In this document: positions 8,630-32,028 of the stretch, one piece after another | Position numbering within the stretch: the first letter of the stretch is position 1 | How the letters are laid out: each line of letters opens with the position of its first letter | Source of the DNA: an uncultured Candidatus Saccharibacteria bacterium | GTDB taxonomy: Bacteria > Patescibacteriota > Dojkabacteria > SC72 | NCBI GenBank assembly: GCA_964500025.1 | Contig: CAZCMQ010000001.1 | Coordinates: 1-55,290 of the forward strand | Length of the DNA: 55,290 bases | Direction of reading: 5' to 3' | Translations under genes and position numbers: made by a program | Notes under the pieces: model-generated | Database searches by the model: none | Told to the model about the DNA's origin: nothing | The model's input: only the letters and a program-made list of their open reading frames with translations

Positions 8630-8938
8630 CTGAAAAAATTATAAAAAATTTATCATACTCTGTTTCCGAGCTCCGTCAGGAGCGAGTTTTCCCCCCTGGG
8701 GGGTCGATTTTTGAGGGGTCGGGAGGGGGGCTGTCGAAGAGGCTGACAGGGTGATTGCTTACTAACAAGCACTTGCACGCTGGCGCCTCATATACTTTGC
8801 TTACAGTTTTCCTACTGTTAGTTAGTGTTTACCTACGTCTTTATGGGTCGCGGACTATGCTTATGGCAGGGTACGCGGCCGGCCTAGGGTGGCCCGAAGG
8901 CAGGGTTCGGCAGGGGGTTGATGTTGCGTGCGAGCAAC

Positions 8939-8950
8939 AACATGCATGTT
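8939..8950. repeat. Palindrome copy AACATGCATGTT
   Basis: Perfect 12-bp palindrome in a non-coding stretch. Confidence 0.85.
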
Positions 8951-9090
8951 AGATCGAGGTAGGGTTTTCCTGATTCTTTTTTTTCGGCACAGCACTTGTT
9001 TTCGTGCTACTCTATAGATCCGTAGTGATTTTTTGGAGTAAATGAGAATGATTCGCAAATTGGTAGGTCTGGTCGGCGGGAGGGGTTGAC

Positions 9091-9300
9091 ATGGCGATGA
9101 CCCGCGCAGAACTCATGGAGTTCGCCGAACTCTCGGCGGCGCTCGCCAAGGACAACGGCTGGAACTACGCCGACCCCGTGGCCACGCACCAAGAAAATCT
9201 CATGGACACCATGGCCGAGCACGGGATCAGGAACCCCGATTACAGTGATGCGCTTGATCTCTACGCGCGGCTTGTCCGCCAATTCGGATTGAGGGGTTGA
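9091..9300 (+). CDS. GC-rich island ORF, 69 aa, unknown function
   Basis: GGGAGGGG Shine-Dalgarno 5 nt before the ATG; GC-rich third codon positions. Confidence 0.6.
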   Translation: MAMTRAELMEFAELSAALAKDNGWNYADPVATHQENLMDTMAEHGIRNPDYSDALDLYARLVRQFGLRG

Positions 9301-9434
9301 CATGCGGACACCGATCTTCGCACGGGCGAGGTGATGAGCATGTGGCCGGCCGATGCGGCGTATGCGGCCCGAGTGCTCGGGTGGCCCCTAGTGGATCAGA
9401 GGGGCTATTGGGCGGATTCTAACTGGAGCTGACC

Positions 9435-9614
9435 ATGAAACTGATCAAAAACTTTCCCGACAACCGGACTAAGGTTTACCAGCAAGATGGCGAGTATATC
9501 GTCCGATTCTTTGACGCCGATGGACGGCATCTGCCCGATGCTGATTATTTTACCGACGACAAAACCGACGCCTTGGCGACTGCCTCGGTGCGATGGATGA
9601 ATCTGGGAGACTGA
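9435..9614 (+). CDS. GC-rich island ORF, 59 aa, unknown function
   Basis: Not in the track (below 60 aa). GGAG 6 nt before the ATG. Sequence: MKLIKNFPDNRTKVYQQDGEYIVRFFDADGRHLPDADYFTDDKTDALATASVRWMNLGD. Confidence 0.55.
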   Translation: MKLIKNFPDNRTKVYQQDGEYIVRFFDADGRHLPDADYFTDDKTDALATASVRWMNLGD

Positions 9615-9685
9615 CATCTAGGCCGAAACCTAGCCCCTCCGGGGGCGATGGTCTGCCGGTATGTGCCGGTACTGACGAGGCTATC

Positions 9686-9892
9686 ATGACACTTCAAGGA
9701 AAAACGGACATGAACCCGCCATTTACGGTCCACCTCACGCGCACCGACTATTCCGCTATCCGCACGGCGCTCTTACTGTATCTGTGGAAGGTACAGGATC
9801 GCATCAAGGGTGGACAGGCAAATCCGTGGGATGCCGGCACCCTGATGAAAATTCAACGCGCATTAAATGCCATCGAGAATCAGTGCAAATAA
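9686..9892 (+). CDS. GC-rich island ORF, 68 aa, unknown function (shorter start within track ORF 9593..9892)
   Basis: GAGG 5 nt before the ATG at 9686; followed by the hairpin terminator at 9907. Confidence 0.55.
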   Translation: MTLQGKTDMNPPFTVHLTRTDYSAIRTALLLYLWKVQDRIKGGQANPWDAGTLMKIQRALNAIENQCK

Positions 9893-9906
9893 TTGACAGG
9901 AATCAC

Positions 9907-9928
9907 AGCCGGCCTAGCGCCGGCTTTT
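9907..9928 (+). terminator. Intrinsic terminator-like hairpin AGCCGGC-ctagc-GCCGGCT + TTT
   Basis: 7-bp GC stem, 5-nt loop, short T run, 15 nt after a stop codon. Confidence 0.6.
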
Positions 9929-9942
9929 AACATGTATGTTAA
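9927..9942. repeat. Palindrome copy TTAACAT-GT-ATGTTAA
   Basis: 7+2+7 inverted repeat; exact reverse complement of the copy at 11818-11833. Confidence 0.85.
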
Positions 9943-9945
9943 GTT

Positions 9946-9959
9946 AGTGAGTACTCACT
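9946..9959. repeat. Second perfect palindrome AGTGAGTACTCACT
   Basis: 14-bp perfect palindrome 3 nt after the previous palindrome. Confidence 0.8.
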
Positions 9960-10063
9960 TCGGAAAAAAGCATGCCAGCCTGGGTTAGGGTTTTCCCTAA
10001 TGTAAGTTTGTATGGGTCGCGGGCGACTAATATACAGACAAGTGTCAGACACTGCGGTTAAAC

Positions 10064-10079
10064 TGGCATGGGTTTTGCT
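10064..10079 (+). promoter_or_regulatory. Sigma54-like -24/-12 element (TGGCAT-N5-TTGCT)
   Basis: ctGGcatgggttttGCtt with GG-N10-GC spacing, about 195 nt upstream of ORF 10274; single occurrence. Confidence 0.3.
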
Positions 10080-10183
10080 TGCAAAATAGTTCTTGTGCCC
10101 GACGTCGGAATACGCTACAATGGGAGTATGGGTCTATGGATTGACTATTGATTCTGGTGTACCGATAGAAAAAATTCATTGGC

Positions 10184-10197
10184 TAACATGCATGTTA
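10184..10197. repeat. Palindrome copy TAACATGCATGTTA
   Basis: Perfect 14-bp palindrome 77 nt upstream of ORF 10274. Confidence 0.85.
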
Positions 10198-10273
10198 CGC
10201 GTGACAGGCCGCCCCGAATCATGAGACTATATGTGTACGGTCACTGTTGACCGCACCTACAGGAGATTGAAAA

Positions 10274-11140
10274 ATGGAAAATGCTACTGCTGTCGTCGCT
10301 GACGGACATTTAGAGCCGATCGGTAAATCGGATGCGCTGGTGCCCCAAGCGATCACTGGTCAGGGTATCGCAAACCTGCTGGCGGAAATCTCGGACGTGT
10401 CCCGCGCTGCGGGACTGGCCGCCACGAAAGCCAAGTTTGAAACGCTGCTGGCCGGAATTTTCGCGCTTGGTCAGGATGCCTTCAAAACCGTCAAAAAAGA
10501 CTTCCGCGATGCGAGGAAAGCGCAGGGATACGAGGATTCCTCGCAGCGGGCGACTGATCTGCACGCAATTTGGGGGGCGAATCAGTGGATCAAACTCCCT
10601 GTGCTGGACGAGAATGGTCAGCCGCTGTATGACACTGTGGTACAGATCGGGGCGGACGGCAAGCCCGTCATGAATCCTAATGATGCGCAGGCGACCGTCG
10701 AAATTCCTCGTATGGCGAATTGGATGCCGCAGGAATCGGAGTATGCATGGAATTCCTGCACCAATGCTGCGCGCGCTGCGCTGAAACTGGCCGGAATCAC
10801 TCCGACCGGCGGAAAGATTTTGACCGACGAGCAAAAAGAGGCGAACAAGGAAAAACGCCTCACGTCGAAAGCCGTGGAAGAGGCGAAGGTTGATCCGATG
10901 ACGCTGTTGTCTATGGCGCCTGAGGAACGGGTCAAGGTGTTGCAGGATCTGGACACGGCGATCCAGAAAAAGCGCGAAGAATTGGAGTACAATGCGCTCG
11001 AAAAATCGGCTGCCCGGATCGGCAAGCGGCTGCTGGAAGATTATTCCGGGCAGGATCTGCTGGATATGCTGACGCTGATCTGCCGGGAAGCCGGATATAA
11101 CTGCCATCTGGAAAAGAGAATCGCCGAAGCCGCCGAGTAA
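10274..11140 (+). CDS. GC-rich island ORF, 288 aa, unknown function
   Basis: AGGAG 7 nt before the ATG and a hairpin terminator 7 nt after the stop; the shadow ORFs on both strands are typical of GC-rich DNA. Confidence 0.7.
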   Translation: MENATAVVADGHLEPIGKSDALVPQAITGQGIANLLAEISDVSRAAGLAATKAKFETLLAGIFALGQDAFKTVKKDFRDARKAQGYEDSSQRATDLHAIWGANQWIKLPVLDENGQPLYDTVVQIGADGKPVMNPNDAQATVEIPRMANWMPQESEYAWNSCTNAARAALKLAGITPTGGKILTDEQKEANKEKRLTSKAVEEAKVDPMTLLSMAPEERVKVLQDLDTAIQKKREELEYNALEKSAARIGKRLLEDYSGQDLLDMLTLICREAGYNCHLEKRIAEAAE

Positions 11141-11146
11141 TCAACT

Positions 11147-11167
11147 AGCCCCCTAATGGGGGCTTTC
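11147..11167 (+). terminator. Hairpin AGCCCCC-taat-GGGGGCT + TTC
   Basis: 7-bp GC stem immediately after the stop of 10274..11140; weak T run. Confidence 0.5.
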
Positions 11168-11183
11168 TCATTAGGAATGAAAC

Positions 11184-11399
11184 ATGGCTTATCAAGTTTG
11201 CTTTTGGGCAAAAGACGGACCGAATGGTGAATCCCATCTTCGCACGGTCCGTCTTACTCGGGTGGCACAGGCCGAATCAATAGCACGGCATCGGATCTTA
11301 GGATGTGTCAGGGTGACCCTTGAACGCACCGACGGTCCGCCGGAAAAGCGGATTCTACGGAATCTGTTTATCAAGCCCGGATACAAAGATCCGTTCTAA
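11184..11399 (+). CDS. GC-rich island ORF, 71 aa, unknown function
   Basis: AGGAA-type SD upstream of the ATG; the stop codon TAA is the first arm of the palindrome at 11397. Confidence 0.6.
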   Translation: MAYQVCFWAKDGPNGESHLRTVRLTRVAQAESIARHRILGCVRVTLERTDGPPEKRILRNLFIKPGYKDPF

Positions 11400-11410
11400 C
11401 ATGCATGTTA
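11397..11410. repeat. Palindrome copy TAACATGCATGTTA
   Basis: Perfect 14-bp palindrome overlapping a stop codon and directly preceding a terminator hairpin. Confidence 0.85.
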
Positions 11411-11431
11411 AAGCCCCTAACGGGGCTTTTT
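11411..11431 (+). terminator. Intrinsic terminator AAGCCCC-taac-GGGGCTT + TTT
   Basis: 7-bp stem, tetraloop, T run. Confidence 0.7.
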
Positions 11432-15715: not shown

Positions 15716-16318
15716 GTGCCTATGGGCACGATGTCCTTGGAAACCTTTAAAAAATTAGGTGAACAAGTAAGTTCTATTGATCCTGAATTTCTACAAGAAA
15801 ATGATGTGCTAGTTCTGTGGGGAGGGGAAGATATTTCTTCTCATTTTTATGGGGAGAAACCCACATATACATACGCTGGTTCACCATCCCGTCGAGATGT
15901 GATCGAACAACGTATGTTCAATTCCGCTGTTTCAAAGGGATTGCCTATCATTGGTGTCTGCCGTGGAGCACAGTTAGCTTGTGCTCTATCTGGCGGCCGT
16001 TTATATCAAGATATTCAGCATCCTGGCATGCATTACATGTCATGTAATGACGGAAAACAGCGCGTCTCTAATTCTGTGCATCATCAAATGATGCGGCCTG
16101 ATGACACTGATCATCAGCTAATTGCTTGGACAAACAATCTTTCCCCTTATCATAAAACAGAAGAAGGTGATGTTGGGGAAGTAGAACAAGAACCAGAGAT
16201 TGTTTATTTCAATAAAACTAAAGCTCTAGCAATTCAAGGCCATCCAGAATTTGTTCCTAATGGACATCCATTTCATACTTATGCTTGTGAGTTAATTGAT
16301 GCCTACAGTATCAAGTAG
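15716..16318 (+). CDS. Class I glutamine amidotransferase / peptidase C26 (gamma-glutamyl hydrolase-like)
   Basis: Nucleophile elbow IIGVCRGAQL and the His/Glu motif AIQGHPEF. Confidence 0.85.
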   Translation: MPMGTMSLETFKKLGEQVSSIDPEFLQENDVLVLWGGEDISSHFYGEKPTYTYAGSPSRRDVIEQRMFNSAVSKGLPIIGVCRGAQLACALSGGRLYQDIQHPGMHYMSCNDGKQRVSNSVHHQMMRPDDTDHQLIAWTNNLSPYHKTEEGDVGEVEQEPEIVYFNKTKALAIQGHPEFVPNGHPFHTYACELIDAYSIK

Positions 16319-16703
16319 TATTACTGGATGTGGCATGGGCCACATTAGTTCCCTGAACTTCAATAGTAAAAAAACCACACAAGACTTTATTGCGGTCTTG
16401 GAACGAGTATTAAGAGGTACAGCAAAAGCAAAAAACAAAAAGTATCGAATGTATACTTATACACTAGCTAACACTCAATTACTACCCGATAACATGAACA
16501 TCATGAAAACAAATGATGATAATAGAGGGTGGTTTTATATACATGCACATCCATTTTTTGTAAAAGCATTCCGACCGAAAAAAATTCTAGAATGGGAAAA
16601 CAGCATTCATTCTTACAATAAGAACGTTATGTTTTCATTCAAATTAACAGATGAAGGTCTTGCTAAATTAAAAAAACTCCTAAAGGAACATAATATTTTA
16701 TGA
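16296..16703 (+). CDS. Hypothetical protein inside the amidoligase cluster
   Basis: Track ORF; alternative start ATG 16335. Confidence 0.6.
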   Translation: MMPTVSSSITGCGMGHISSLNFNSKKTTQDFIAVLERVLRGTAKAKNKKYRMYTYTLANTQLLPDNMNIMKTNDDNRGWFYIHAHPFFVKAFRPKKILEWENSIHSYNKNVMFSFKLTDEGLAKLKKLLKEHNIL

Positions 16704-17446
16704 GACTTGGTTTTGATCCTGAATTTTTTCTTAAAAGCAAAAGTGGTGTTTTTATTTCTTCTGTTGGACTTATTGGTGGATCTAAAGAATTTCCTTTAGA
16801 TATTGGAGAAGGTTGTGCACTACAAGAAGACAATGTTGCGGTCGAGTTTAACACCCCACCATGTAGCTCACCTGAAGAGGCGATACGGTATTTTCAATAC
16901 GCCAAAGAAAAAACAATCGAAAAAATCCAAGATATGGGGCTTGAAATCGCAATTGTCCCATCGGCCGTATTCGATCCATCGGAATTGGATCATCCTTCGG
17001 CTAGGAGATTCGGATGCGATCCGGATTACAATGCCTGGACGTTTGAAGAAAATCCTCGACCACAAGCGGAGAATTCAAACCTTCGTTCAGCGGGAGGTCA
17101 CATCCACGTTGAAACTGACAAAAACATCATTCAAGTGGTACGTGCGTTGGATGTTTACGTGGGAGCCTGGCTTTCACAACGAGATATGGATACGCAAAGA
17201 CGACTATTATATGGGAAAGCCGGAGCCTTTCGTCCCAAAGATTATGGTGTAGAGTACCGTACTCCCTCTAATTATTGGATTTCTACTGACGATCTTATTA
17301 GCCGAACTTGGTGGCAAGTAGAAAAAGCCCTCAAATATGTCGATCAAGGAAAGGAAATTCCTGTTCGGGATGACATCATTGAGGCGGTAAATAATGCAGA
17401 TAAAAGGATCTATAAGAAACTAGACAAGGAATTTGCAATTGAATAA
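16700..17446 (+). CDS. COOH-NH2 ligase (phage phiEco32-type amidoligase family, from memory)
   Basis: LGFDPEFF..., EDNVAVEFNT, FGCDPDYNAW, AGGHIHVE, GVEYRTP: the pattern I associate with the glutamate-cysteine-ligase-like phage COOH-NH2 ligases. Confidence 0.75.
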   Translation: MRLGFDPEFFLKSKSGVFISSVGLIGGSKEFPLDIGEGCALQEDNVAVEFNTPPCSSPEEAIRYFQYAKEKTIEKIQDMGLEIAIVPSAVFDPSELDHPSARRFGCDPDYNAWTFEENPRPQAENSNLRSAGGHIHVETDKNIIQVVRALDVYVGAWLSQRDMDTQRRLLYGKAGAFRPKDYGVEYRTPSNYWISTDDLISRTWWQVEKALKYVDQGKEIPVRDDIIEAVNNADKRIYKKLDKEFAIE

Positions 17447-17948
17447 AGATGATGTAATTTCTGATTTCACTAAAAAATACCATGACACTTATTTATTTGC
17501 AAACCCTTGCTCATCTTTTGATTTGTTTCATGTCACATTAAGCGAAAAAGATAAAATCACATTATTTAATGATGATTTGGGAAACTTCACCACCTTTTTT
17601 GGTGGAACTGTAGAATTAAATGTCAAGTATCCGAAAACTGGGTATTTTGAACACGAAGATAAAATTTATTTTATTATTAGAAATCCACAAAGACAGTGGA
17701 AGCGTGGAATTAATTCAGGAACATTTCATATTCTCGTAAATGGATCTAATTTAGTCAAAAAATGGTCCACTTCTTTAGTTAAAGCTAGTTTCAACGATCC
17801 AACAAATGTGGCTGAGCGTTATGAAAAAGCAAAAAAGGGAGAGAAAACTCTAATCAATCGAGATTGGATTTATTCTGATGGTGTATACTTCAAACTCAGA
17901 AAAATGCCACTTCCGTTGAAAGAATATGAATCATGTATCCTAAAATAA
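17433..17948 (+). CDS. Hypothetical protein inside the amidoligase cluster
   Basis: 171-aa packed ORF. Confidence 0.65.
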   Translation: MQLNKDDVISDFTKKYHDTYLFANPCSSFDLFHVTLSEKDKITLFNDDLGNFTTFFGGTVELNVKYPKTGYFEHEDKIYFIIRNPQRQWKRGINSGTFHILVNGSNLVKKWSTSLVKASFNDPTNVAERYEKAKKGEKTLINRDWIYSDGVYFKLRKMPLPLKEYESCILK

Positions 17949-18712
17949 AAATTTCAGAAATTTTTCCCGTTCCTCCGTTAAAAGTTATTAATTTGTCGGA
18001 GTCTTTCAAGAAGAAATACAGTTCTTATATTTCTTCAGAGAGACTTTTGGGAATTGAACTGGAAATTGAAAAACCGTTTTTTAGAACTAAATGTTCTAGT
18101 GCTATTTGGAGCGGAACAAATGACGGTAGTTTGCGAAACGGTGGAATAGAGTTCAAAAGTGCGGGGCCGATGAAATTTTGTGATTTGGTTCCAAGTCTTA
18201 CTTATTTTAAAGAATCACTTTCTTATGTGATTTCTCCACGATGCTCTTCTCATGTTCATGTCAATGTAGGGGATCTGGATTTTAATGCTGTAGAACGTAT
18301 TTTTACGTTTTACATGCATATAGAGAAAGATTTATTCAAGTTCGTTGGAAAAAATCGCAATAAAAATATTTATTGTATTCCATTGTGGGATACTACCTAC
18401 GGATTGCGTCCGTTTAAAGAAGCGGTACAGATACAGTCAAAAAATAACCAAATTAAGGTAAATTGGAGCAAATATACCGCATTGAATTTTGCTACCATTC
18501 CGACACTAAATACTATAGAATTTAGACATTATCCAGGATTATCGGAAATTCCTCATTATATCTCTTTTATTTCTATCCTGGAGAATATGATTAAGTTTTG
18601 TGAATCTAATAATCCATTAGATTTGTCCTATTCAGAAATGTGCTCTGTTGTGAATCTGTCTATTAATAGACAAGAATTTGATAATACTCGTCTACTTTAT
18701 TCCGGAGAATAA
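17933..18712 (+). CDS. Amidoligase (glutamine-synthetase-like 'Amidoligase_2' type, from memory)
   Basis: LGIELEIE, TNDGSLRNGGIEFKS, SSHVHVNV, TIEFRH motifs. Confidence 0.75.
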   Translation: MYPKIKISEIFPVPPLKVINLSESFKKKYSSYISSERLLGIELEIEKPFFRTKCSSAIWSGTNDGSLRNGGIEFKSAGPMKFCDLVPSLTYFKESLSYVISPRCSSHVHVNVGDLDFNAVERIFTFYMHIEKDLFKFVGKNRNKNIYCIPLWDTTYGLRPFKEAVQIQSKNNQIKVNWSKYTALNFATIPTLNTIEFRHYPGLSEIPHYISFISILENMIKFCESNNPLDLSYSEMCSVVNLSINRQEFDNTRLLYSGE

Positions 18713-18715
18713 TAA

Positions 18716-20083
18716 ATGTGTGGTTTGGTAGGAATGCTGAGTAAGCGAAAGCTTGGACTCAATCACGAAGAAATCAATGCTTTCAAGGATCTTCTAACAA
18801 TTGATGTTCTCCGTGGAAAAGATTCTACGGGTGTTTTTAGTGTCGCGAAAAGGGAGTTACAGTTATTTAAGGTTGCTACGCATCCGATGAATGCGTATGA
18901 CACCAAAGAATGGAAAGAATTCGAATCAGACGCACGAAGAAACAGTAAGGTACTGGTGGGCCATAACCGGGCTGCGACGAGAGGGACTGTAAACAGTAAT
19001 AACGCTCATCCGTTCTTAGAAAATAATATTTGCTTAGTTCATAATGGAACTTTGTTTAATCACACAAATCTGAATAAAGATTCAGAAGTAGATAGTCATG
19101 CGATTGCTGTAGCTTTATCAAAAAACAACAATGTTGATGAAGTAATTAATTCCATTTATGGAGCTTTTGCATTAATTTGGTTTAATTCGGATACTAATGA
19201 AGTTATTTTTACGCGGAATAAGGATCGTCCCTTGTTTTATGCTGAAAATAATGACATGGTGGCCATCGGTTCTGAATATCTACCATTGTTTTACTCTTTA
19301 GGTAGAAATAAAATTGATCCAAAAGACATCATTCAAGAAGTTCCAGTTGATGAGATTTTTACCTTTAGTGGAAAGACTTTAAAGAGGAGGAAACTGGCTA
19401 CTCCAGACCCAAAAGGTCATTCGATTTTGAGTGGTGGGAAACACAAATCGGAAACCTCCTCCACTAAAACCAAAGTTATCTTCCATATGGAAGAACTCAA
19501 GAATTATGCAGGGGTTGAAGGAGTTCTAGCACTAGGTAAAATCATTCTTCCGGAAACATTTAAGGGAGAAGATTGTCGCATTACTCTTGAAGGATGGGAA
19601 AAAGAATTTGCAGATGATCTGTTAAATCAGCCATTTTACGAAGCTGAAATTGATCATGTTTCCTATCATAATAGAGGTTCTATGTATTGGTTGTCTTATT
19701 CTTCTCTTAACATGTATGTTGGAGAAGAGTGTGATACATTAGATGAACCAATTCCTACTGCTATTCGGGATCATGTCATTGAGCGTCATTTGTGCGATGA
19801 ATGTGCAATGCCGTTTTCAAAATATAATTTTCATGGTGCCCAAGTTATTCTAGATCCCGCAGATTGCACAATAACTACAACCTGCTCTGATTGCGTCAGA
19901 GCAGAGATGTTTAAAACAGATCCAGAGTTAGGAGATAAGTTCGATGAGTATTTTAATTCTCCCGTACAAGAAAGGAAGCAGAAGCGCGCGAACTTTATGC
20001 ACACATTTGAAAAAATTTCAAACATGCGTGCTCGTTCGACCGGATCTTCCCATCAATCTAAAGAAACACCAGCTTCTAGTTAA
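18716..20083 (+). CDS. Class II (Ntn) glutamine amidotransferase with C-terminal Cys-rich extension
   Basis: N-terminal MCGLVG (Cys nucleophile), GHNRAATRG, NAHPF, LVHNGTLFN; C-terminal CDEC...CSDC. Confidence 0.85.
   Translation: MCGLVGMLSKRKLGLNHEEINAFKDLLTIDVLRGKDSTGVFSVAKRELQLFKVATHPMNAYDTKEWKEFESDARRNSKVLVGHNRAATRGTVNSNNAHPFLENNICLVHNGTLFNHTNLNKDSEVDSHAIAVALSKNNNVDEVINSIYGAFALIWFNSDTNEVIFTRNKDRPLFYAENNDMVAIGSEYLPLFYSLGRNKIDPKDIIQEVPVDEIFTFSGKTLKRRKLATPDPKGHSILSGGKHKSETSSTKTKVIFHMEELKNYAGVEGVLALGKIILPETFKGEDCRITLEGWEKEFADDLLNQPFYEAEIDHVSYHNRGSMYWLSYSSLNMYVGEECDTLDEPIPTAIRDHVIERHLCDECAMPFSKYNFHGAQVILDPADCTITTTCSDCVRAEMFKTDPELGDKFDEYFNSPVQERKQKRANFMHTFEKISNMRARSTGSSHQSKETPASS
19707..19720. 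repeat. Intragenic match to the palindrome (TTAACATGTATGTT)
   Basis: 14-nt identity with the copy at 9927; lies inside the amidotransferase CDS and may be coincidental. Confidence 0.4.
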
Positions 20084-20702
20084 TTGGGGAAATTCTAGGA
20101 ATATAGTTTTGGGGGACAAAGTTCTCAATCCTCCTCATGTAGTTAATAGAACTTCAAACAAACTAACCTTTCTACGCATTTTAAGGGGCCTAGAAGGAGT
20201 TTATTTCCCTGATTGGTGTGAGGATAGCGACACAGCTAAAAAATGGATTACAGAAGGTTCTGTGGTGTTTTGTAGGACTTTACTAAATTCCCATTCAGGG
20301 AGAGGTATTGTTGTAGCAGAAACTCCAGAACAAGTAGTTGAGTGTTTATTATACACCAAATATGTAAAAAAGAAAAAAGAATTTCGGGTACACGTATTTA
20401 GAGATTCTGTAATCGATGTTCAAGAAAAAAGAAAAAGAAAGGGGATGGAAAATAATCCAAAGATCCGTAATCTGGATAATGGATGGGTTTACTGTAAAGA
20501 TAATATACAAGAGCCAGATAATCTCAGAGAAACGGCTATCAAAGTAATCCAATCTTCTGGTCTTGATTTTGGTGCTGTGGATATTATCTGGAATGAAAAA
20601 GAAAATAAATGTTATGTTCTGGAAGTTAATTGTGCTCCAGGATTAGAAGGAACTACTATTGAATCTTATGGAGAAGCAATTGGTGAATACGCAAGTAATT
20701 AG
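19944..20702 (+). CDS. ATP-grasp ligase (RimK-like)
   Basis: AGGAG 9 nt upstream. N-terminal ILILPY..SRSA...LVNWGNS, then SHSGRGIVV, EFRVHVF, DFGAVDIIWNEKENKCYVLEVNCAPGLEG. Overlaps the upstream gene by 140 nt. Confidence 0.85.
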   Translation: MSILILPYKKGSRSARTLCTHLKKFQTCVLVRPDLPINLKKHQLLVNWGNSRNIVLGDKVLNPPHVVNRTSNKLTFLRILRGLEGVYFPDWCEDSDTAKKWITEGSVVFCRTLLNSHSGRGIVVAETPEQVVECLLYTKYVKKKKEFRVHVFRDSVIDVQEKRKRKGMENNPKIRNLDNGWVYCKDNIQEPDNLRETAIKVIQSSGLDFGAVDIIWNEKENKCYVLEVNCAPGLEGTTIESYGEAIGEYASN

Positions 20703-21153
20703 ATTTGAAGATTGTCTAAAAGCGGGAGAGGTTGTTTGGCATGCAGTTCCGACTAAAATAGTCGGATCTTCTATCAAAAAAGGAGAACCTGCAGTAGTTG
20801 TAGAAACTGATTGCTCAAAATTTGGAATTTTATCCAAATTTAATGGGATTGTGTCTTATGTAGATAATATGGCTATTGATGAGCCATGTGATATCATCAT
20901 TAAAATTGAAGAAAAAGAAATTCAGAAAAAGACAAAATCTGTAAAAATAAATGCAGGTGTCTTAGATAACCATCAAGAACACATTGCTAATTTATTTAAT
21001 GAGTTTCTTCGAGATGCGGACCGGCCTCCGAATCCGGTAAATATAATCGTACACGACGAGGAAAGAAATCTTGTATGGGACATTGAAGATATTCCGGCCG
21101 TGGGTGCTCAAGGAAACGGCCTGCGCGGAGTGCGCGTTCGGCCACGCGAATAG
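20659..21153 (+). CDS. Protein with N-terminal lipoyl/biotinyl-like hybrid-barrel motif (ETDC in place of ETDK)
   Basis: KKGEPAVVVETDCSKFGILSKFNGIVSYV resembles the lipoyl-attachment consensus ..G..l..iETDKa...i.s...G.v. The start is uncertain (ATG 20659/20668 or GTG 20683). Confidence 0.6.
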   Translation: MNLMEKQLVNTQVIRFEDCLKAGEVVWHAVPTKIVGSSIKKGEPAVVVETDCSKFGILSKFNGIVSYVDNMAIDEPCDIIIKIEEKEIQKKTKSVKINAGVLDNHQEHIANLFNEFLRDADRPPNPVNIIVHDEERNLVWDIEDIPAVGAQGNGLRGVRVRPRE

Positions 21154-21155: not shown

Positions 21156-21416
21156 ATGAGATGTCTATCTTGTAATAGAATCCTCTCTTCATTTGAATCA
21201 ACCCGAAAATATACCAAAAGCCATGAATATGTGGATTTATGTAAAAGATGCATCAAGGGTTTGGGAATCACAACTGTTGACAGAGAGGATCTAAGAGATG
21301 AGAGTGACTTGCAAGAAATGTGGGCTATTGAAAATGAATGTGAGCGAAGTGAAGAATTGTATGAGAACGGATTGTCTTTTGAAGGAGAGATTGAAACTCC
21401 CCCACACTCCGAGTAA
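21156..21416 (+). CDS. Zinc-ribbon-like small protein with acidic C-terminus
   Basis: CLSCN...CKRC. Confidence 0.6.
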   Translation: MRCLSCNRILSSFESTRKYTKSHEYVDLCKRCIKGLGITTVDREDLRDESDLQEMWAIENECERSEELYENGLSFEGEIETPPHSE

Positions 21417-21479: not shown

Positions 21480-21695
21480 ATGACACTTCATGAAATTCCA
21501 TTAAAACTTGGTGATTGGATTTGGTCATTAACAAGTTGGACATGGGTATGTGTTGGAGAAAACATCACAGCAACTTTTGTTAATCGAAATCAACGTAAGT
21601 TTTTGTGGTACAGTCCGCCAGAAATAAAGAAAAAACTTCATGAGTTGGATAAAAGTAGCCGAGAAAGTAGCAAAGAAGAGCCAGTTCCGGCATAA
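21480..21695 (+). CDS. Hypothetical protein
   Basis: Track ORF; overlaps the deaminase start by 56 nt. Confidence 0.5.
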   Translation: MTLHEIPLKLGDWIWSLTSWTWVCVGENITATFVNRNQRKFLWYSPPEIKKKLHELDKSSRESSKEEPVPA

Positions 21696-21999
21696 AGTAG
21701 GAGCGGTCATTATAAAAGGTGGCCGCGTACTTTCTGTTGGATATAATGAAATCAGATATGCCAAAATTAAGCGACCATATCCGGAAAGTCTTCATGCAGA
21801 AGTGGCGGCGATCTACCGATCAATACAAACTGGACATGATCTATCCGGTGCTTCTATTTATGTATGCCGTGCTAGCGGGGATTCTTTTAGGCTTTCTAAG
21901 CCATGTCCTCATTGCATGTCTCTTATAAAAACAGTAGGAATAAAAAAAGTAGTTTGGAGTGAGCAGGGCGATCAAACAAGGTCCGTGTATTTGGTGTAA
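21640..21999 (+). CDS. dCMP/CMP deaminase (zinc-dependent)
   Basis: HAE ... PCPHC zinc-binding motifs; VGAVIIKGGRVLSVGYN. Confidence 0.85.
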   Translation: MSWIKVAEKVAKKSQFRHKVGAVIIKGGRVLSVGYNEIRYAKIKRPYPESLHAEVAAIYRSIQTGHDLSGASIYVCRASGDSFRLSKPCPHCMSLIKTVGIKKVVWSEQGDQTRSVYLV

Positions 22000-23618: not shown

Positions 23619-23648
23619 TTGACAAATCTGTTAAAAATGTGTTATAAT
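23619..23648 (+). promoter_or_regulatory. Near-consensus sigma70 promoter with extended -10 (TTGACA-18 nt-TGtTATAAT)
   Basis: attTTGACAaatctgttaaaaatgTGtTATAATgt. It shares TTGACAAATCT with 28916 and TGTGTTATAATGT with the leftward promoter. Confidence 0.7.
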
Positions 23649-24146: not shown

Positions 24147-24320
24147 ATGAGATTGTGGCCTTTTTCTAAAGAAGTTAAAGTACAAACCGACAAGAGAATA
24201 ACTATTCCCATTAAAGTACTTGCAGAAAGTCTATTTGAGGAGTATAATCCTAACAAATATTATTATTTTGCCCGTGTTTCTCATAATGATGACATTATAA
24301 TCGCCCAATATCAGAAATGA
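24147..24320 (+). CDS. AbrB/SpoVT (swapped-hairpin) family DNA-binding protein, 57 aa; antitoxin-like
   Basis: Not in the track. GAGG 6 nt upstream. KVQTDKRITIPIKVLAESL...DDIIIAQYQK parallels AbrB (VDELGRVVIPIELRRTL...DDEKIILKKYK). The stop overlaps the next ATG (ATGA). Confidence 0.65.
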   Translation: MRLWPFSKEVKVQTDKRITIPIKVLAESLFEEYNPNKYYYFARVSHNDDIIIAQYQK

Positions 24321-24640
24321 AAGTAAATAATACCTCTAGTAATTCTATAGTACTCTCCATTCCAGAGGGATCGGCCCAATTAACTGAATTCCCGGGGAAT
24401 GAATGTCAGATAGGAATTTTTCATAATGTTTATATTAAAAGGGAACATAGAGGAAAGGGAATTGGATCTAAATTTCATAAACATAGACTAGAAGCTGCCA
24501 AAAGATATGGATATTCTACTGTAATCTGTACGGTTAATGTTGATAACGTGGTTGAACTTCGCATATTAGAAAAGAACAATTGGATCAATATGGGAAAGCT
24601 CACAGATACTTCTTATCTTTTTAAGAAAGATTTGACATGA
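24317..24640 (+). CDS. Minimal GNAT-family N-acetyltransferase, 107 aa
   Basis: Acetyl-CoA motif A: VYIKREHRGKGIGSKFHKHRLEAAKRYGY...VNVDNVVELRILEKNNWINMG. Confidence 0.8.
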   Translation: MKVNNTSSNSIVLSIPEGSAQLTEFPGNECQIGIFHNVYIKREHRGKGIGSKFHKHRLEAAKRYGYSTVICTVNVDNVVELRILEKNNWINMGKLTDTSYLFKKDLT

Positions 24641-26833: not shown

Positions 26834-27086
26834 AGAGTGTGAGCGCTGTCAAAGCTGTCAATCTACTAGTCCAACAATAGTCGCAGCACATAGTAATCAG
26901 CTCAGGGACGGAAAAGGGAGAGGACTAAAGGCACATGACTATAGAGTGGCTTATCTTTGTTATGAATGCCACACAGAAATTGATCAAGGAAAACTCTCCA
27001 AAGAAGAAAAAAGAGAATTGTGGGAGGATGCGCATAGACGCACGATCGGATGGCTGTTCGAGAACAATCATATAAAAATTATCTAA
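26781..27086 (+). CDS. Zinc-binding putative nuclease (DUF1364/YbcO-like, from memory)
   Basis: CERCQSC...AAHSNQLRDGKGRGLKAHDY..YLCYECH. Confidence 0.6.
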   Translation: MKVRISLYRNQKILDLARECERCQSCQSTSPTIVAAHSNQLRDGKGRGLKAHDYRVAYLCYECHTEIDQGKLSKEEKRELWEDAHRRTIGWLFENNHIKII

Positions 27087-28192
27087 CCTTAGATACAGAA
27101 AACACCACTAGCAATAAAGGCGCTGCTCACGACAAAAGAAATAGAAATGTAGGAATCTCCTATCATTTCAATGGAGACTTTGGATTTACCAACGACTATA
27201 AATTAATTCAAAGTTTGGTAGATCAAGCCACAGATCTAGTTGGATTCAACTTCAAGTATGATCTGGCTTGGCTAAGAAATGTTGGTATCCGAGTAGAACA
27301 TAAAAGAATTTGGGATACCCAAATCGGTGAGTATCTTTTAACTCACCAGCAAACTCGCTATCCTTCTCTCAATGACTGTGCCATTAAATATGGTTTAGGA
27401 GAGAAGATAGACAAGATCGCAGAATATTGGGCTCAGGGAATAAATACAAATGAAATTCCTTGGGAAGAGCTAGAAGAGTATGCGATTCAAGATGCCAAAC
27501 TAACATGGGATCTCTTCAAAGTTTTAGATAATCTCATCGGAGATAAAAAAACTTTGTGGAAATTATATGGATATGATATAATTGTATTAGAGGACATGGA
27601 AAGAAATGGAATCCTCATCTCTAAGGACTATCAGAGGTCGAAAAAAGCTGAGCTTCAAGAGAGACTTGAGTTGGTTGAATCGGAAATTCGGAAATTCATT
27701 CCACCCGATATCCCGAACTTCAACATCAACTCCGGAGATCATCTTTCAGCCCTCCTCTATGGAGGGTCAATCCTCTATCAAAAAAGGATCCCTATTGGAG
27801 TATATAAAACAGGTATCAAACAGGGCCAACCTAGATTCCAAATAGAAAGACAGGTGTTTGTTCTTCCGGGAATGATAAAACCATTAAAAGGATCTGAGTT
27901 AAAAAAACCAGGAATGTATGCTACAGATGAAGCCACATTATTAAAATTAGGAGATAAGAGTGGGTTGATCCCTCTGCTTCTTGAACAAGCGGGACTCACT
28001 AAACTTATTGGAACTTATTTTAATTATGAAGAATTAATTGAAGAAATGGGATGGGATAATTGTATTCATTCTTCCTTTAATCATATTGTAACAAACACTG
28101 GTAGATTAAGTTCAGTGCGACCAAACATTCAGAATTGTCCTCCAGAAGTAGATTATTCTTTTATCAGTCGTTATGATAGTAGCGGCCGATAA
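27050..28192 (+). CDS. polA: Family A DNA polymerase, N-terminal segment (3'-5' exonuclease + thumb/fingers up to the QNxP motif)
   Basis: Exo I LTLDTENT, TNTGRLSSVRPNIQNCP; the ORF ends 19 nt after the ATG of the next segment. Confidence 0.85.
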   Translation: MAVREQSYKNYLTLDTENTTSNKGAAHDKRNRNVGISYHFNGDFGFTNDYKLIQSLVDQATDLVGFNFKYDLAWLRNVGIRVEHKRIWDTQIGEYLLTHQQTRYPSLNDCAIKYGLGEKIDKIAEYWAQGINTNEIPWEELEEYAIQDAKLTWDLFKVLDNLIGDKKTLWKLYGYDIIVLEDMERNGILISKDYQRSKKAELQERLELVESEIRKFIPPDIPNFNINSGDHLSALLYGGSILYQKRIPIGVYKTGIKQGQPRFQIERQVFVLPGMIKPLKGSELKKPGMYATDEATLLKLGDKSGLIPLLLEQAGLTKLIGTYFNYEELIEEMGWDNCIHSSFNHIVTNTGRLSSVRPNIQNCPPEVDYSFISRYDSSGR

Positions 28193-28919: not shown

Positions 28920-28944
28920 CAAATCTAGACAAATATAATATTAT
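28916..28944 (+). promoter_or_regulatory. Sigma70-type promoter candidate (TTGACA-17 nt-TATTAT) upstream of ssb
   Basis: cTTGACAaatctagacaaatataaTATTAT; the first 11 nt are identical to the 23619 promoter (TTGACAAATCT). Confidence 0.5.
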
Positions 28945-28956
28945 ATATGGAGTCAT

Positions 28957-30565: not shown

Positions 30566-30897
30566 TTGCTGGTGTTTTGGCAGCCTGTGCTTTAACAGTG
30601 CAGGCTGCCGAACCATCTAAAGAGCAGGTAATTGCGGCTAGTGCTTTGTTAGCAGCAGATTGGCTGCAAACAAGATACATAGCGAGACATCCAGATCAGT
30701 TCTTTGAACATAATCCATTACTTGGTAGGCATCCTAGCATTGGTCGGGTCAATACTCATTTTCTTGGGGCATTTCTTCTTGGCTACACTCTTACTCAGTG
30801 GGGCTATTGCAATAGGAGTTGTTACTCTGTGTTTATTGCTCTCGAAGGTGCGAATGTAGCCAGGAATTTCTCAATAGGAATAAAGTTTGAATTCTAA
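30544..30897 (+). CDS. Exported protein with signal peptide and C-terminal ...KFEF
   Basis: GTG start; KKLIAGVLAACALTVQA/AEP signal-like N-terminus; terminal Phe. Confidence 0.6.
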   Translation: MGSFKKLIAGVLAACALTVQAAEPSKEQVIAASALLAADWLQTRYIARHPDQFFEHNPLLGRHPSIGRVNTHFLGAFLLGYTLTQWGYCNRSCYSVFIALEGANVARNFSIGIKFEF

Positions 30898-31971: not shown

Positions 31972-32028
31972 GTTTATCTGTACAGGTGAAGAAATCAAAC
32001 CAAGGAAGATCGGCTTTGTTTAAACTAC

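What the first reader, a model, noticed from the sequence alone, without database searches (positions are those of the whole stretch)
15716..21153. Eight-gene amidoligase / ATP-grasp / double glutamine-amidotransferase cluster of unknown product
Consecutive, tightly packed genes encode the following:
- a class I GATase / C26 gamma-glutamyl hydrolase-like protein (15716)
- an unknown protein (16296)
- a COOH-NH2 ligase (16700)
- an unknown protein (17433)
- a glutamine-synthetase-like amidoligase (17933)
- an Ntn class II GATase with a Cys-rich tail (18716)
- a RimK-like ATP-grasp ligase (19944)
- a lipoyl-like barrel protein (20659)

This combination matches the phage-borne peptide-ligase neighbourhoods predicted purely by comparative genomics (the amidoligase analysis of Iyer, Abhiman, Burroughs and Aravind, 2009). 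Those were proposed to build gamma-glutamyl or peptide tags on a protein, a cell-wall component or a metabolite. To my knowledge the product and target remain biochemically undefined. Here the cluster lies immediately upstream of the dCMP deaminase and primase genes, so a nucleotide or DNA modification role cannot be excluded either.
Basis: partly seen in the sequence, partly recalled or inferred. Interest (0 to 1): 0.7.

Follow-up and report, generated by a model that had tools for sequence, protein, structure and literature searches.

The report
Phage peptide-ligase (amidoligase) gene cassette
This is a new, divergent copy of a gene cassette found in hundreds of phages, encoding three amide-bond-forming ligases, a glutaminase and a gamma-glutamyl-cleaving enzyme; the cassette was described by comparative genomics in 2009-2013 and its product is still unknown.

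Summary
Five enzyme assignments pass curated thresholds: C26/class I GATase, COOH-NH2 ligase type 2, Amidoligase_2, Ntn class II GATase and RimK-like ATP-grasp. The "lipoyl-like" call for the eighth ORF rests only on weak, sub-threshold matches.

Comparison with 56 loci shows six genes form the conserved unit:
- the five enzymes;
- the "unknown" 171-aa protein at 17433, which belongs to a large orphan family that almost always sits just before the amidoligase.

ORFs 16296 and 20659 occur only in close relatives.

This is the known phage "peptide-ligase / peptidoglycan-modification cassette" (Iyer 2009; Hardies 2013). It occurs in about 314 sequenced phages, including PaP3/LUZ24, phiEco32, 7-11, PA11, RIO-1 and a crAss-like phage. 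I found no biochemical characterisation in the literature library and no homologue of either GS-like ligase among solved structures.

The link to dCMP deaminase is not supported. Two small ORFs intervene, a recombination boundary separates them, the phage has ThyX, and DNA of a cassette-bearing phage is cut by most restriction enzymes tested.

Most likely the cassette builds or edits a glutamyl-containing, amidated conjugate on a small cytoplasmic acceptor. Verdict: a new member of a known, still unsolved kind; moderate-to-low interest.

The parts
15716..16318 (+). g1: Peptidase C26 / class I GATase-fold protein (200 aa), probably a gamma-glutamyl-amide hydrolase
   Evidence: Pfam PF07722 2.1e-18. 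Best solved relatives are Lin1909 (4e-10), PuuD (2.6e-5) and SpuA-type proteins. Best NCBIfam match is gamma-glutamyl-CDP-amidate hydrolase, 1.2e-8, far below its cut-off. Cys82/His176/Glu178 are conserved in 98-100% of 41 homologues. Present in 39 of 56 loci.
16296..16703 (+). g2: 135-aa ORF of unknown function, lineage-specific insert and not part of the conserved cassette
   Evidence: No family match. Found only in the close relative L012 (54% identity, dN/dS 0.41). No homologue in 11 diverse phage loci.
16700..17446 (+). g3: COOH-NH2 ligase type 2 (phiEco32-like, GCS/GS fold), an ATP-dependent carboxylate-amine ligase
   Evidence: PF14395 4.9e-12 and phrog_3815 9e-64. 314 phage records by tblastn. 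Invariant D6/E8/E49/H134/H136/E185/R187 and a GC.PD motif. No relative among solved structures.
17433..17948 (+). g4: 171-aa core protein of an orphan family, always just 5' of the amidoligase; possible specificity or adaptor subunit
   Evidence: Iterative HMM search recovers exactly the positional homologues in 9 of 11 phage loci. HMM hits in 34 loci, nearly always followed by Amidoligase_2. 3473 clusters among 1.84 billion representatives; the 150 best listed are all about 170-220 aa. No Pfam match. AF2 pLDDT 72.8 with no PDB fold match. BFVD matches only its own family. Near-invariant P..GY and R.P.R..(K/R).G motifs.
17933..18712 (+). g5: Amidoligase_2 (glutamine-synthetase-like) carboxylate-amine ligase
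   Evidence: PF12224 2.9e-06 and phrog_7469 1.3e-33. The sequence shows GIELEIE, SSHVHVN and IEFRH motifs. Present in 44 of 56 loci. No relative among solved structures.
18716..20083 (+). g6: Ntn class II glutamine amidotransferase domain (residues 1-~225), a non-conserved middle region and a C-terminal CxxC...CxxC zinc ribbon
   Evidence: GATase_6 1.9e-14 and phrog_4736 5.5e-56 on residues 1-227. Cys2, R85, N110-G111 and D126-S127 are conserved across 47 homologues. The C-terminal half cannot be aligned even with the closest cultured phage. No Pfam domain there in 6 other versions. 33 of 47 versions have at least two CxxC motifs in their C-terminal part, usually about 25 residues apart near the end.
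19944..20702 (+). g7: RimK-family ATP-grasp ligase (alpha-L-glutamate-ligase-like); overlaps g6 by 140 nt
   Evidence: PF08443 1.2e-08 and phrog_2599 2.2e-75 from residue 1. Solved relatives are RimK 1.7e-5. NCBIfam matches MptN, rimK_fam and CofF are all far below cut-off. D213/E227/N229 are conserved. The overlap and both reading frames are kept in L012.
20659..21153 (+). g8: 164-aa lineage-specific ORF (start more likely ATG at 20668). The N-terminal ~80 aa are possibly a lipoyl/GcvH-like barrel with Cys in place of the modifiable Lys; the C-terminal half is replaced in relatives
   Evidence: Sub-threshold matches: Biotin_lipoyl 0.0034, not_gcvH 0.0041, sucB 0.0088. hhalign P=0.0048 aligns ETDC on ETDK. 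Only the N-terminal 78 aa are conserved in L012/L013 (79%, dN/dS 0.17). Absent from other phages.
21156..21416 (+). g9: 86-aa zinc-ribbon protein (CxxC-22-CxxC) with a long acidic tail; clade-specific companion that follows the ATP-grasp gene
   Evidence: Homologues directly downstream of the ATP-grasp gene in 6 loci (window, L001, L012, L016, L017, L018). Tails are always acidic but the last residue varies: E, N, K, R, W. No family match.
21480..21695 (+). g10: 71-aa ORF of unknown function. It shares the divergence level of the cassette rather than that of the replication genes; membership uncertain
   Evidence: 69% identity and dS 1.08 against L012, like g1-g9. The overlapping dCMP deaminase (21640-21999) and the primase have dS 0.05-0.08.

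Best explanation
The region is a copy of the conserved phage peptide-ligase ('amidoligase') cassette. It is a self-contained set of soluble enzymes, co-transcribed with the early/replication genes, that makes and trims amide bonds around glutamate in the cytoplasm of the infected cell.

**Shown here**
- Three different ATP-dependent carboxylate-amine ligases (RimK-type ATP-grasp, COOH-NH2 ligase type 2, GS-like Amidoligase_2) keep their catalytic residues.
- So do an Ntn glutaminase and a Cys-His-Glu C26 hydrolase.
- All of these are inherited together with a sixth, orphan 171-aa protein.

**Inferred**
- Each ligase activates a carboxylate as an acyl-phosphate and forms one amide bond. At least one of these probably adds L-Glu or makes a gamma-glutamyl link.
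- The Ntn glutaminase supplies ammonia to turn one activated carboxylate into a carboxamide. This is the logic of AsnB, of MurT/GatD, and of the NAGGN (N-acetylglutaminylglutamine amide) amidotransferase.
- The C26 enzyme removes a gamma-glutamyl group, as a deprotection, trimming or recycling step. In other phages an AIG2/GGCT cyclotransferase takes this role. Precedents are PuuD, EgtC, Cj1417 and BtrG.
- The orphan protein g4 works with the amidoligase as a specificity or adaptor subunit.

**Acceptor**
I commit to a low-molecular-weight cytoplasmic acceptor: an amine- or glutamate-bearing metabolite. The nucleotide-linked cell-wall precursor proposed in the literature is the leading specific candidate. 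I favour this over DNA or a protein.
For: **Family assignments and active sites**
- Family assignments.
- Catalytic residues are conserved across 41-56 homologues: C26 C82/H176/E178; GAT-II C2/R85/N110-G111/D126; ATP-grasp D213/E227/N229; COOH-NH2 ligase E8/E49/H134/H136/E185/R187.

**Co-inheritance**
- g3 hits 314 phage records and g7 hits 313, with the same taxon profile.
- Gene-order table of 56 loci: GAT-II in 47, Amidoligase_2 in 44, ATP-grasp in 41, C26 in 39, g4 in 34.
- Among cultured phages C26 (64 records) and GGCT (210 records) largely partition the cassette-bearing genomes. The window has C26 and no GGCT. This fits an interchangeable gamma-glutamyl-removing step.

**Closest characterised relatives mostly act on small molecules**
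- PuuD, SpuA and gamma-glutamyl-CDP-amidate hydrolase for g1.
- MptN and CofF beside RimK for g7.
- YbdK/GCS2 for g3.
- GlmS, PurF, AsnB, NAGGN amidotransferase and EgtC for g6.

**Other support**
- No transmembrane segments, and purifying selection on every gene.
- The cassette is phage-restricted. A scan of 185,579 species genomes gave 43 loci, nearly all MAG contigs and many about 45-50 kb long (phage-sized). The only isolate hits were two short scaffolds (about 1 kb) of Herbiconiux daphne.
- It is expressed: SU10 proteomics lists the ATP-grasp, GATase and YtfP/GGCT proteins among early gene products (PMC4281155).
- It matters for infection: both independently evolved lines of a Bruynoghevirus acquired missense changes in the amidoligase and the GAT-II (PMC11450229).
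- The cell-wall proposal comes from the literature: PMC5498523, PMC6256558, PMC11945000.
Against: - No product, substrate or target has been observed for any member. Every chemical step above is inferred from family-level similarity. All NCBIfam scores are far below the equivalog cut-offs.
- RimK itself modifies a protein.
- The conserved C-terminal zinc ribbon of the GAT-II hints at a macromolecular partner or target. So do its hypervariable middle region and the zinc-ribbon/acidic-tail neighbour g9.
- g4 has no recognisable fold or motif that shows what it binds.
- The cell-wall idea has never been tested. It rests only on the count of three unusual peptide linkages.
- I could not read Iyer 2009 or Hardies 2013 directly.
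Confidence: 0.5

Rival explanations
1. Protein tagging. The ligases add glutamate or a short peptide to a host or phage protein, at a C-terminal or side-chain carboxylate as RimK does on ribosomal protein S6. This would redirect or protect a host machine. C26/GGCT would act as the eraser, and g4 or the zinc-ribbon domains would provide target recognition.
For: - The nearest solved relatives of g7 are RimK proteins.
- 33 of 47 GAT-II proteins carry a zinc ribbon at the end of an otherwise hypervariable C-terminal half.
- g9 is a zinc-ribbon protein with an acidic tail, kept next to the ATP-grasp gene in 6 loci.
- g4 is a conserved non-enzymatic-looking partner.
- Directed evolution hit the amidoligase and the GAT-II.
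- Peptide tagging is one of the options citing papers attribute to Iyer 2009.
Against: - No candidate acceptor has a conserved terminal Glu or an invariant Lys/Glu. The last residue of g9 varies (E/K/N/R/W) and the invariant residues of g4 are Arg and Gly.
- Three different ligases plus a glutaminase plus a gamma-glutamyl remover are more than a tagging reaction needs.
- Five of the six enzyme types have mostly small-molecule relatives.
Confidence: 0.25
2. DNA or nucleotide hypermodification. The cassette would decorate a base or a nucleotide pool with an amino-acid or amide moiety to evade restriction, which would explain its position next to the dCMP deaminase and replication genes.
For: - The cassette lies beside primase/helicase and DNA polymerase genes in many unrelated phages, and between primase and UDG in a crAss-like phage.
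- Amidoligase and amidotransferase Pfam domains co-occur with thymidine-hypermodification genes in some viral contigs (PMC8989533).
Against: - gDNA of the cassette-bearing LUZ24-like phage U17 was sensitive to 11 of 16 restriction enzymes, the most sensitive of four phages tested (PMC11945000).
- The window encodes ThyX and an ordinary dCMP deaminase.
- No ORF of 150 aa or more matches a hydroxymethylase, 5-HMUDK, aGPT-Pplase or DpdA.
- The deaminase is separated from the cassette by two ORFs and by a sharp recombination boundary: dS 0.5-2.5 versus 0.05-0.08.
- The deaminase is not linked to the cassette in the other phages.
- Placement among early genes is expected from expression timing alone.
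Confidence: 0.07
3. Auxiliary metabolism. The genes would boost or rewire host glutamine/glutamate, glutathione-like thiol or polyamine pools during infection, for example by gamma-glutamylation and release of polyamines. No new dedicated product would be made.
For: - The GS-like ligase plus C26 hydrolase pair mirrors PuuA/PuuD.
- A GCS2-like ligase, an ATP-grasp enzyme and GGCT mirror glutathione synthesis and turnover.
- Some genome papers annotate the genes as AMGs (PMC10580990).
Against: - The families are essentially phage-only and very distant from host enzymes. All equivalog scores are about ten-fold below cut-off. No copies were found in assembled isolate chromosomes.
- AMGs are normally close copies of host genes.
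- A strictly co-inherited six-gene set with an orphan subunit argues for a dedicated pathway.
Confidence: 0.13

Closest known systems
Phage 'peptide-ligase / peptidoglycan-modification cassette' (Iyer et al. 2009; Hardies et al. 2013), as in phiEco32, PaP3/LUZ24, PA11, RIO-1, 7-11 and CW02
   Same: - Same five enzyme families and the same ~180-aa hypothetical protein.
- Same strand and nearly the same order.
- Same position ahead of the replication genes.
   Different: - At most 48% amino-acid identity to any cultured phage; the best is Alcaligenes phage QDWS535.
- Gene order is C26-ligase-g4-amidoligase-GATII-ATPgrasp rather than the commoner C26-GATII-ligase-g4-amidoligase-ATPgrasp.
- It has C26 and no GGCT.
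- It carries lineage-specific inserts g2 and g8 and the clade-specific zinc-ribbon protein g9.
RimK / MptN / CofF alpha-L-glutamate ligases (ATP-grasp)
   Same: Same Pfam family and the same Mg/ATP-binding residues. These are the best solved-structure and NCBIfam relatives of g7.
   Different: Scores are about ten-fold below the equivalog cut-offs (33 bits against 331 for RimK). The substrate is unknown.
PuuA/PuuD and related gamma-glutamyl-amine pathways (SpuA, IpuC/IpuF, Cj1417, BtrJ/BtrG, EgtA/EgtC)
   Same: They pair a GS/GCS-type or ATP-grasp ligase with a C26, Ntn or GGCT enzyme that later removes the gamma-glutamyl group. g1 is nearest to PuuD, SpuA and Cj1417-type hydrolases.
   Different: - Those pathways lie in cellular catabolic or biosynthetic operons with oxidases, decarboxylases or carrier proteins, which are absent here.
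- Similarity is at family level only.
- This comparison rests on my own knowledge of those pathways.
Glutamine-dependent amidation systems (AsnB, MurT/GatD, NAGGN synthesis by Ngg/AsnO)
   Same: A glutaminase is coupled to an ATP-dependent carboxylate activation to make a carboxamide. g6 keeps every Ntn glutaminase hallmark and weakly matches AsnB and the NAGGN amidotransferase.
   Different: g6 lacks any recognisable synthetase or acceptor domain. Instead it has a variable region plus a zinc ribbon. Coupling to one of the separate ligases is an inference.

Membership tests
Phage amidoligase / peptide-ligase cassette (Iyer 2009; Hardies 2013) | COOH-NH2 ligase type 2 (PF14395) present | tested here: met
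   46.1 bits against a cut-off of 25; phrog_3815 9e-64.
Phage amidoligase / peptide-ligase cassette (Iyer 2009; Hardies 2013) | Amidoligase_2 (PF12224, GS-like) present in the same cluster | tested here: met
   27.8 bits against a cut-off of 22; phrog_7469 1.3e-33.
Phage amidoligase / peptide-ligase cassette (Iyer 2009; Hardies 2013) | RimK-like ATP-grasp ligase present in the same cluster | tested here: met
   PF08443 35.2 bits against a cut-off of 21; phrog_2599 2.2e-75.
Phage amidoligase / peptide-ligase cassette (Iyer 2009; Hardies 2013) | Class II (Ntn) GATase with N-terminal catalytic Cys | tested here: met
   The protein starts MCGLVG. GATase_6 scores 54.2 bits against a cut-off of 27. 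C2/R85/N110-G111/D126 are conserved in the family.
Phage amidoligase / peptide-ligase cassette (Iyer 2009; Hardies 2013) | A gamma-glutamyl-cleaving enzyme (AIG2/GGCT or C26) in or near the cluster | tested here: met
   C26 protein at 15716 (67.4 bits against 20.5) with an intact triad. GGCT is absent from the whole window.
Phage amidoligase / peptide-ligase cassette (Iyer 2009; Hardies 2013) | Same-strand, collinear cluster among early/replication genes, with a ~180-aa hypothetical protein between the COOH-NH2 ligase and the amidoligase | tested here: met
   Gene order compared over 56 loci. The g4 family was recovered by HMM in 34 loci, nearly always directly before Amidoligase_2.
Phage amidoligase / peptide-ligase cassette (Iyer 2009; Hardies 2013) | Peptide-bond-forming activity on a defined substrate | not testable with these tools
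   No biochemical data were found for any member in the paper library. The two GS-like ligases have no relative among solved structures.
RimK (ribosomal protein S6--L-glutamate ligase), equivalog | Score above the NCBIfam equivalog cut-off | tested here: not met
   NF007764 scores 33 bits against a cut-off of 331; rimK_fam scores 37.9 against 143.4. Superfamily member only.
GlmS (glutamine--fructose-6-phosphate aminotransferase), as homologues are often annotated | Ntn domain plus two SIS isomerase domains | tested here: not met
   Only residues 1-192 match. The score is 71 bits against a cut-off of 381. There is no SIS domain; the C-terminal half is a variable region plus a zinc ribbon.
Lipoyl/biotinyl attachment domain (for ORF 20659) | Pfam PF00364 above the gathering score, and a modifiable Lys in the (E/D)-x-D-K or A-M-K-M turn | tested here: not met
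   17.6 bits against a cut-off of 22.1. The Lys position is Cys (VETDCS), and this is conserved in relatives. hhalign P=0.0048. The fold resemblance itself is inconclusive.
LysW/ArgW amino-group carrier proteins (considered for ORF 21156) | Zinc-ribbon core plus a conserved C-terminal Glu that the RimK-family ligase loads | tested here: not met
   The zinc ribbon and acidic tail are present, but the last residue is E, K, N, R or W in six homologues. No Pfam match.
Thymidine/cytidine hypermodification gene clusters | A dUMP/dCMP hydroxymethylase or TET/JBP enzyme, plus 5-HMUDK and aGPT-Pplase-type enzymes | tested here: not met
   The phage has ThyX (PF02511, 1.5e-41) and a plain dCMP deaminase. 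No such family appears among the window ORFs of 150 aa or more that were scanned.
Known anti-phage defence systems (PADLOC) | Any component matching a PADLOC model | tested here: not met
   No match for any of ten proteins at E<=0.001.

The most novel reading that the evidence does not exclude
The cassette may be a carrier- or acceptor-protein-dependent system unique to phages. In that reading the orphan g4-family protein is the platform on which the three ligases assemble a glutamyl-containing peptide. g4 has a fold with no match in the PDB and belongs to a family of 3473 clusters. In this lineage the zinc-ribbon/acidic-tail protein g9, or the Cys-for-Lys lipoyl-like protein g8, could play the same role. 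That would make it a new, ribosome-independent peptide-tagging or carrier-protein biosynthetic system, comparable in kind to LysW, Pup or ubiquitin-like conjugation.
Probability: 0.1. Interest if true: 0.8.

Novelty: new member of a known kind. Interest (0 to 1): 0.3.

Why it matters
The cassette is one of the most widespread multi-enzyme modules of unknown function in tailed phages.
- It occurs in about 0.6% of sequenced phage genomes, across at least eight unrelated lineages. These include therapeutic Pseudomonas and E. coli phages and a crAss-like gut phage.
- Its orphan subunit alone forms more than 3000 sequence clusters.
- In the paper library I searched, no publication reports what it makes, about 17 years after it was predicted.

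Solving it would reveal a new way in which phages chemically alter the infected cell, whether the target is the cell wall, a metabolite or a protein. It would also assign function to two ligase families that have no relative among solved structures.

This particular window adds little leverage, because cultured model phages carry the same module. It does contribute:
- a sharper definition of the six-gene core;
- the C26/GGCT alternation;
- the conserved zinc ribbon on the glutaminase;
- evidence that the cassette recombines as a unit, independently of the nucleotide-metabolism genes.

Tried and rejected
1. **LysW-like carrier model for g9.** A zinc ribbon plus an acidic tail next to a RimK-family ligase suggested it. 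Rejected because the C-terminal residue is not conserved and no family matches.
2. **'Substrate tails' in other phages.** In Citrobacter phage CVT22, 21 small ORFs end in LENE. They are spread over the whole early region, not only the cassette. Their DNA (TGGAGAATGAATRA) is a Shine-Dalgarno sequence plus coupled start for the next gene, so it is probably a nucleic-acid-level feature.
3. **Fold assignment for g4.** BFVD returned only family members.
4. **A conserved acceptor domain in the C-terminal half of the GAT-II.** No alignable homology was found and no Pfam domain in six other versions. Only the terminal zinc ribbon recurs.
5. **Cellular homologues that might reveal context.** The genome scan returned almost only MAG contigs, many of phage size.
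6. **Homologues of g8 and g4 by word-indexed search.** Only close relatives were found.
7. **Near-identical DNA in the phage collection.** None found.
8. **Primary sources.** Iyer 2009 and Hardies 2013 are not held in the library. Their proposals are quoted second-hand from papers that cite them.
9. **Defence-system membership.** No PADLOC match.

Full report
**Observation**

The window is a podophage-like genome. It has a leftward structural arm (terminase, portal, major head protein). It also has a long rightward early/replication arm (primase, DnaB, split PolA, ThyX, exonuclease, RNR).

They are tightly packed or overlapping.

Curated profile searches confirm five enzyme families above threshold:
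- Peptidase_C26 / class I GATase (15716)
- COOH-NH2_lig PF14395 (16700)
- Amidoligase_2 PF12224 (17933)
- Ntn class II GATase (18716, N-terminal 225 residues)
- RimK-like ATP-grasp (19944)

ORFs 16296 and 17433 have no family match.

The 'lipoyl-like' label for 20659 rests on four mutually consistent but sub-threshold matches. All of them align VETDCS on the ETDK lipoylation turn.

All eight ORFs are under purifying selection against a metagenomic relative, with dN/dS 0.09-0.41. None has a hydrophobic segment long enough to span a membrane.

**What the unit really is**

There is no near-identical DNA in the phage collection. By protein, however, the COOH-NH2 ligase hits 314 phage records and the ATP-grasp hits 313, with the same taxonomic profile.

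I compared three sets of loci:
- annotated loci from eleven diverse phages: Alcaligenes QDWS535, PaP3, CVT22, RIO-1, Kuravirus MN03, PA11, SE131, crAss-like cr108_1, Aeromonas LAh_6, a Rhizobium phage and a Vibrio phage;
- three metagenomic relatives;
- 43 loci from a scan of 185,579 species genomes. Nearly all of these are MAG contigs, many about 45-50 kb long, which is phage-sized. The only isolate hits were two ~1-kb scaffolds of Herbiconiux daphne.

Clustering all ORFs gives this core:

| Component | Loci (of 56) |
|---|---|
| COOH-NH2 ligase | 56 |
| GAT-II | 47 |
| Amidoligase_2 | 44 |
| ATP-grasp | 41 |
| C26 | 39 |
| g4 family (by HMM) | 34 |
| GGCT | 18 |

Many of the shortfalls are truncated contigs.

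The commonest order is C26 - GAT-II - COOH-NH2 ligase - g4 - Amidoligase_2 - ATP-grasp - primase/helicase - DNA polymerase. The window, QDWS535 and four metagenomic loci share a variant order: C26 - ligase - g4 - amidoligase - GAT-II - ATP-grasp - zinc-ribbon protein.

ORFs 16296 (g2) and 20659 (g8) occur only in close relatives, and only the N-terminal half of g8 is retained there.

**The 'unknown' at 17433 (g4) is a core member**

- An iterative HMM search picks up exactly the ORF between the ligase and the amidoligase in phage after phage.
- An exhaustive search of 1.84 billion representative proteins finds 3473 clusters at E<=0.001. The 150 best listed are all about 170-220 aa.
- The family has no Pfam model.
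- An AlphaFold model built on 81 sequences has pLDDT 72.8, and 94-97 over much of the C-terminal part. It has no significant PDB neighbour and matches only its own uncharacterised relatives in BFVD.
- The near-invariant residues are P..GY and R.P.R..(K/R).G. These suggest ligand binding rather than an acceptor Lys, Glu or terminus.

**Other new details**

1. g1 is closer to gamma-glutamyl-X hydrolases than to amidotransferase subunits. Its relatives are PuuD, SpuA, Lin1909 and the Campylobacter gamma-glutamyl-CDP-amidate hydrolase.
2. Among cultured phages the C26 gene (64 records) and the AIG2/GGCT gene (210 records) largely partition the cassette-bearing genomes. The window has no GGCT. I read the two as interchangeable solutions for removing a gamma-glutamyl group.
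3. The GAT-II keeps every glutaminase hallmark: Cys2, R85, N110-G111 and D126. Its C-terminal half cannot be aligned between lineages and has no Pfam domain. Yet 33 of 47 versions have at least two CxxC motifs in the C-terminal part, usually about 25 residues apart near the end.
4. The catalytic residues of the C26 enzyme, the ATP-grasp and the COOH-NH2 ligase are conserved family-wide.
5. g6 and g7 overlap by 140 nt, and both frames are kept in the relative.

**Relation to the dCMP deaminase**

Two small ORFs separate the cassette from the deaminase.

Against relative L012, synonymous divergence is 0.5-2.5 across g1-g10. It drops to 0.05-0.08 in the deaminase and primase, which are 97-99.5% identical at the protein level. 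The cassette has therefore been exchanged as a block, independently of the nucleotide-metabolism genes.

None of the other phages links the cassette to a dCMP deaminase. The phage has ThyX. No hydroxymethylase, 5-HMUDK, aGPT-Pplase or DpdA-type gene was found among the ORFs of 150 aa or more that I scanned.

In the literature, genomic DNA of the cassette-bearing LUZ24-like phage U17 was cut by 11 of 16 restriction enzymes (PMC11945000). The DNA-modification reading is therefore unlikely, though not formally excluded.

**What is known**

Papers that cite Iyer et al. 2009 and Hardies et al. 2013 describe the module in three ways:
[quoted passage not shown] I could not obtain the two primary papers.

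Nine full-text searches found no biochemical or genetic characterisation. The two GS-like ligases have no homologue among solved structures.

Indirect functional hints:
- SU10 proteomics lists the ATP-grasp, GATase and YtfP proteins among early gene products (PMC4281155).
- Two independently evolved lines of a Bruynoghevirus both acquired missense changes in the amidoligase and the GAT-II (PMC11450229).

**Most likely mechanism**

Shown: a co-inherited, phage-restricted set of soluble, catalytically intact enzymes. It comprises three carboxylate-amine ligases of two folds, a glutaminase, a gamma-glutamyl-cleaving hydrolase or cyclotransferase, and an orphan partner protein.

Inferred from the established chemistry of these superfamilies:
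- Each ligase forms one amide bond through an acyl-phosphate.
- The glutaminase provides ammonia for one amidation.
- The C26/GGCT enzyme removes a gamma-glutamyl group.

Enzyme sets of this kind are characteristic of small-molecule pathways that use glutamate as a building block or transient handle. Examples I know are glutathione, NAGGN, Puu, ergothioneine, butirosin and MeOPN; they also resemble cell-wall precursor chemistry.

I therefore favour a low-molecular-weight cytoplasmic acceptor, with the nucleotide-linked murein precursor as the leading specific candidate (confidence about 0.5).

The main rival is protein tagging (about 0.25). It is favoured by the kinship with RimK, by the zinc ribbons, and by the acidic zinc-ribbon neighbour g9. 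A LysW-like reading of g9 fails, however, because its C-terminal residue is not conserved.

Generic auxiliary metabolism (about 0.13) and DNA modification (about 0.07) are less likely.

**Verdict**

The thing itself is a divergent new member of an already described, widely distributed and still unsolved phage cassette.

It is not surprising to a specialist. This uncultured instance also does not make the open question more testable than the cultured carriers already do, so interest is moderate-to-low.

The useful by-products are:
- the six-gene core definition;
- recognition of the very large orphan g4 family;
- the C26/GGCT alternation;
- the conserved terminal zinc ribbon of the glutaminase;
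- the evidence that the cassette moves as a recombination unit.

Noticed in passing
window 21156-21416 (+); homologues L001:12620-12817, L012:5503-5760, L016:9728-9994, L017:13212-13466, L018:5104-5298: An 86-aa protein with an N-terminal CxxC-22-CxxC zinc ribbon and a long, variable but always strongly acidic tail. It directly follows the ATP-grasp gene in six loci of this cassette sub-type. No family match, and the last residue is not conserved.
   Followed up: partly
window about 21640-21700 (junction of ORF 21480-21695 and dCMP deaminase 21640-21999): A sharp recombination boundary against relative L012. Synonymous divergence is 0.5-2.5 to the left (cassette, g9, g10). It is 0.05-0.08 to the right (dCMP deaminase 97% and primase 99.5% identical at protein level).
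   Followed up: yes
window 8700-11400: A G+C-rich island (0.49-0.54, against 0.36-0.40 in the neighbouring early region) at the divergent junction of the structural and early arms. It holds a 288-aa ORF (10274-11140, +) with no PHROG or Pfam match. A long antisense ORF shadows it. Two strong terminator-like hairpins follow it (11147-11164 and 11410-11429).
   Followed up: partly
window 23619-23648 (+) and 8619-8591 (-): Two perfect 12/12 sigma-70 consensus promoters (TTGACA, 17-18 nt spacer, TATAAT, with an extended -10 TG). Overall, promoter-like sites in the region are no more frequent than in shuffled sequence.
   Followed up: no
window 19944-20083: A 140-nt out-of-frame overlap between the end of the GAT-II gene and the start of the ATP-grasp gene. 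Both frames are conserved in relative L012. An automatic gene caller placed the ATP-grasp start later, although the PHROG alignment begins at residue 1.
   Followed up: partly
window 27050-28192, 28173-28919 and 33755-34495; 32735-33316: The family A DNA polymerase appears split into two adjacent ORFs. A separate 'DNA polymerase exonuclease subunit' lies 5 kb downstream, and an HNH endonuclease lies nearby. A GNAT acetyltransferase sits at 24317-24640.
   Followed up: no
L015 (Citrobacter phage CVT22, NC_027988.2) 28000-43250, minus strand: Twenty-one small paralogous ORFs (gp39 to gp70, about 63-118 aa, many starting M.KFK.GD.V) all end in LENE (or LINE/LENK). They are encoded by the nearly invariant DNA TGGAGAATGAATRA, which doubles as Shine-Dalgarno sequence plus coupled start for the next gene. 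They are scattered through the whole early region, including between the cassette genes.
   Followed up: partly
L010 (Rhizobium phage RHph_N3_19) 3805-4041, 9627-9881, 10678-10935: Three small ORFs inside or beside the cassette end in the same 7-13 residues (...YDPSQ.GDTEEDI). This may be another case of repeated small-gene 3' ends. It is not resolved whether the constraint is on the protein or on the DNA.
   Followed up: no
L009 (Aeromonas phage LAh_6) 11410-14548: Directly downstream of the cassette's ATP-grasp gene lie a ribose-phosphate pyrophosphokinase-like gene and a nicotinate phosphoribosyltransferase-like gene. From memory, this pair resembles the phage NAD+-reconstitution (NARP1-type) counter-defence genes.
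   Followed up: no
L007, L009, L005 (SE131, LAh_6, MN03): In the larger phages the cassette enzymes carry long extra regions with no Pfam match: GAT-II 562-846 aa, ATP-grasp about 400 aa, amidoligase 567 aa. The GAT-II extensions contain up to five CxxC pairs.
   Followed up: partly
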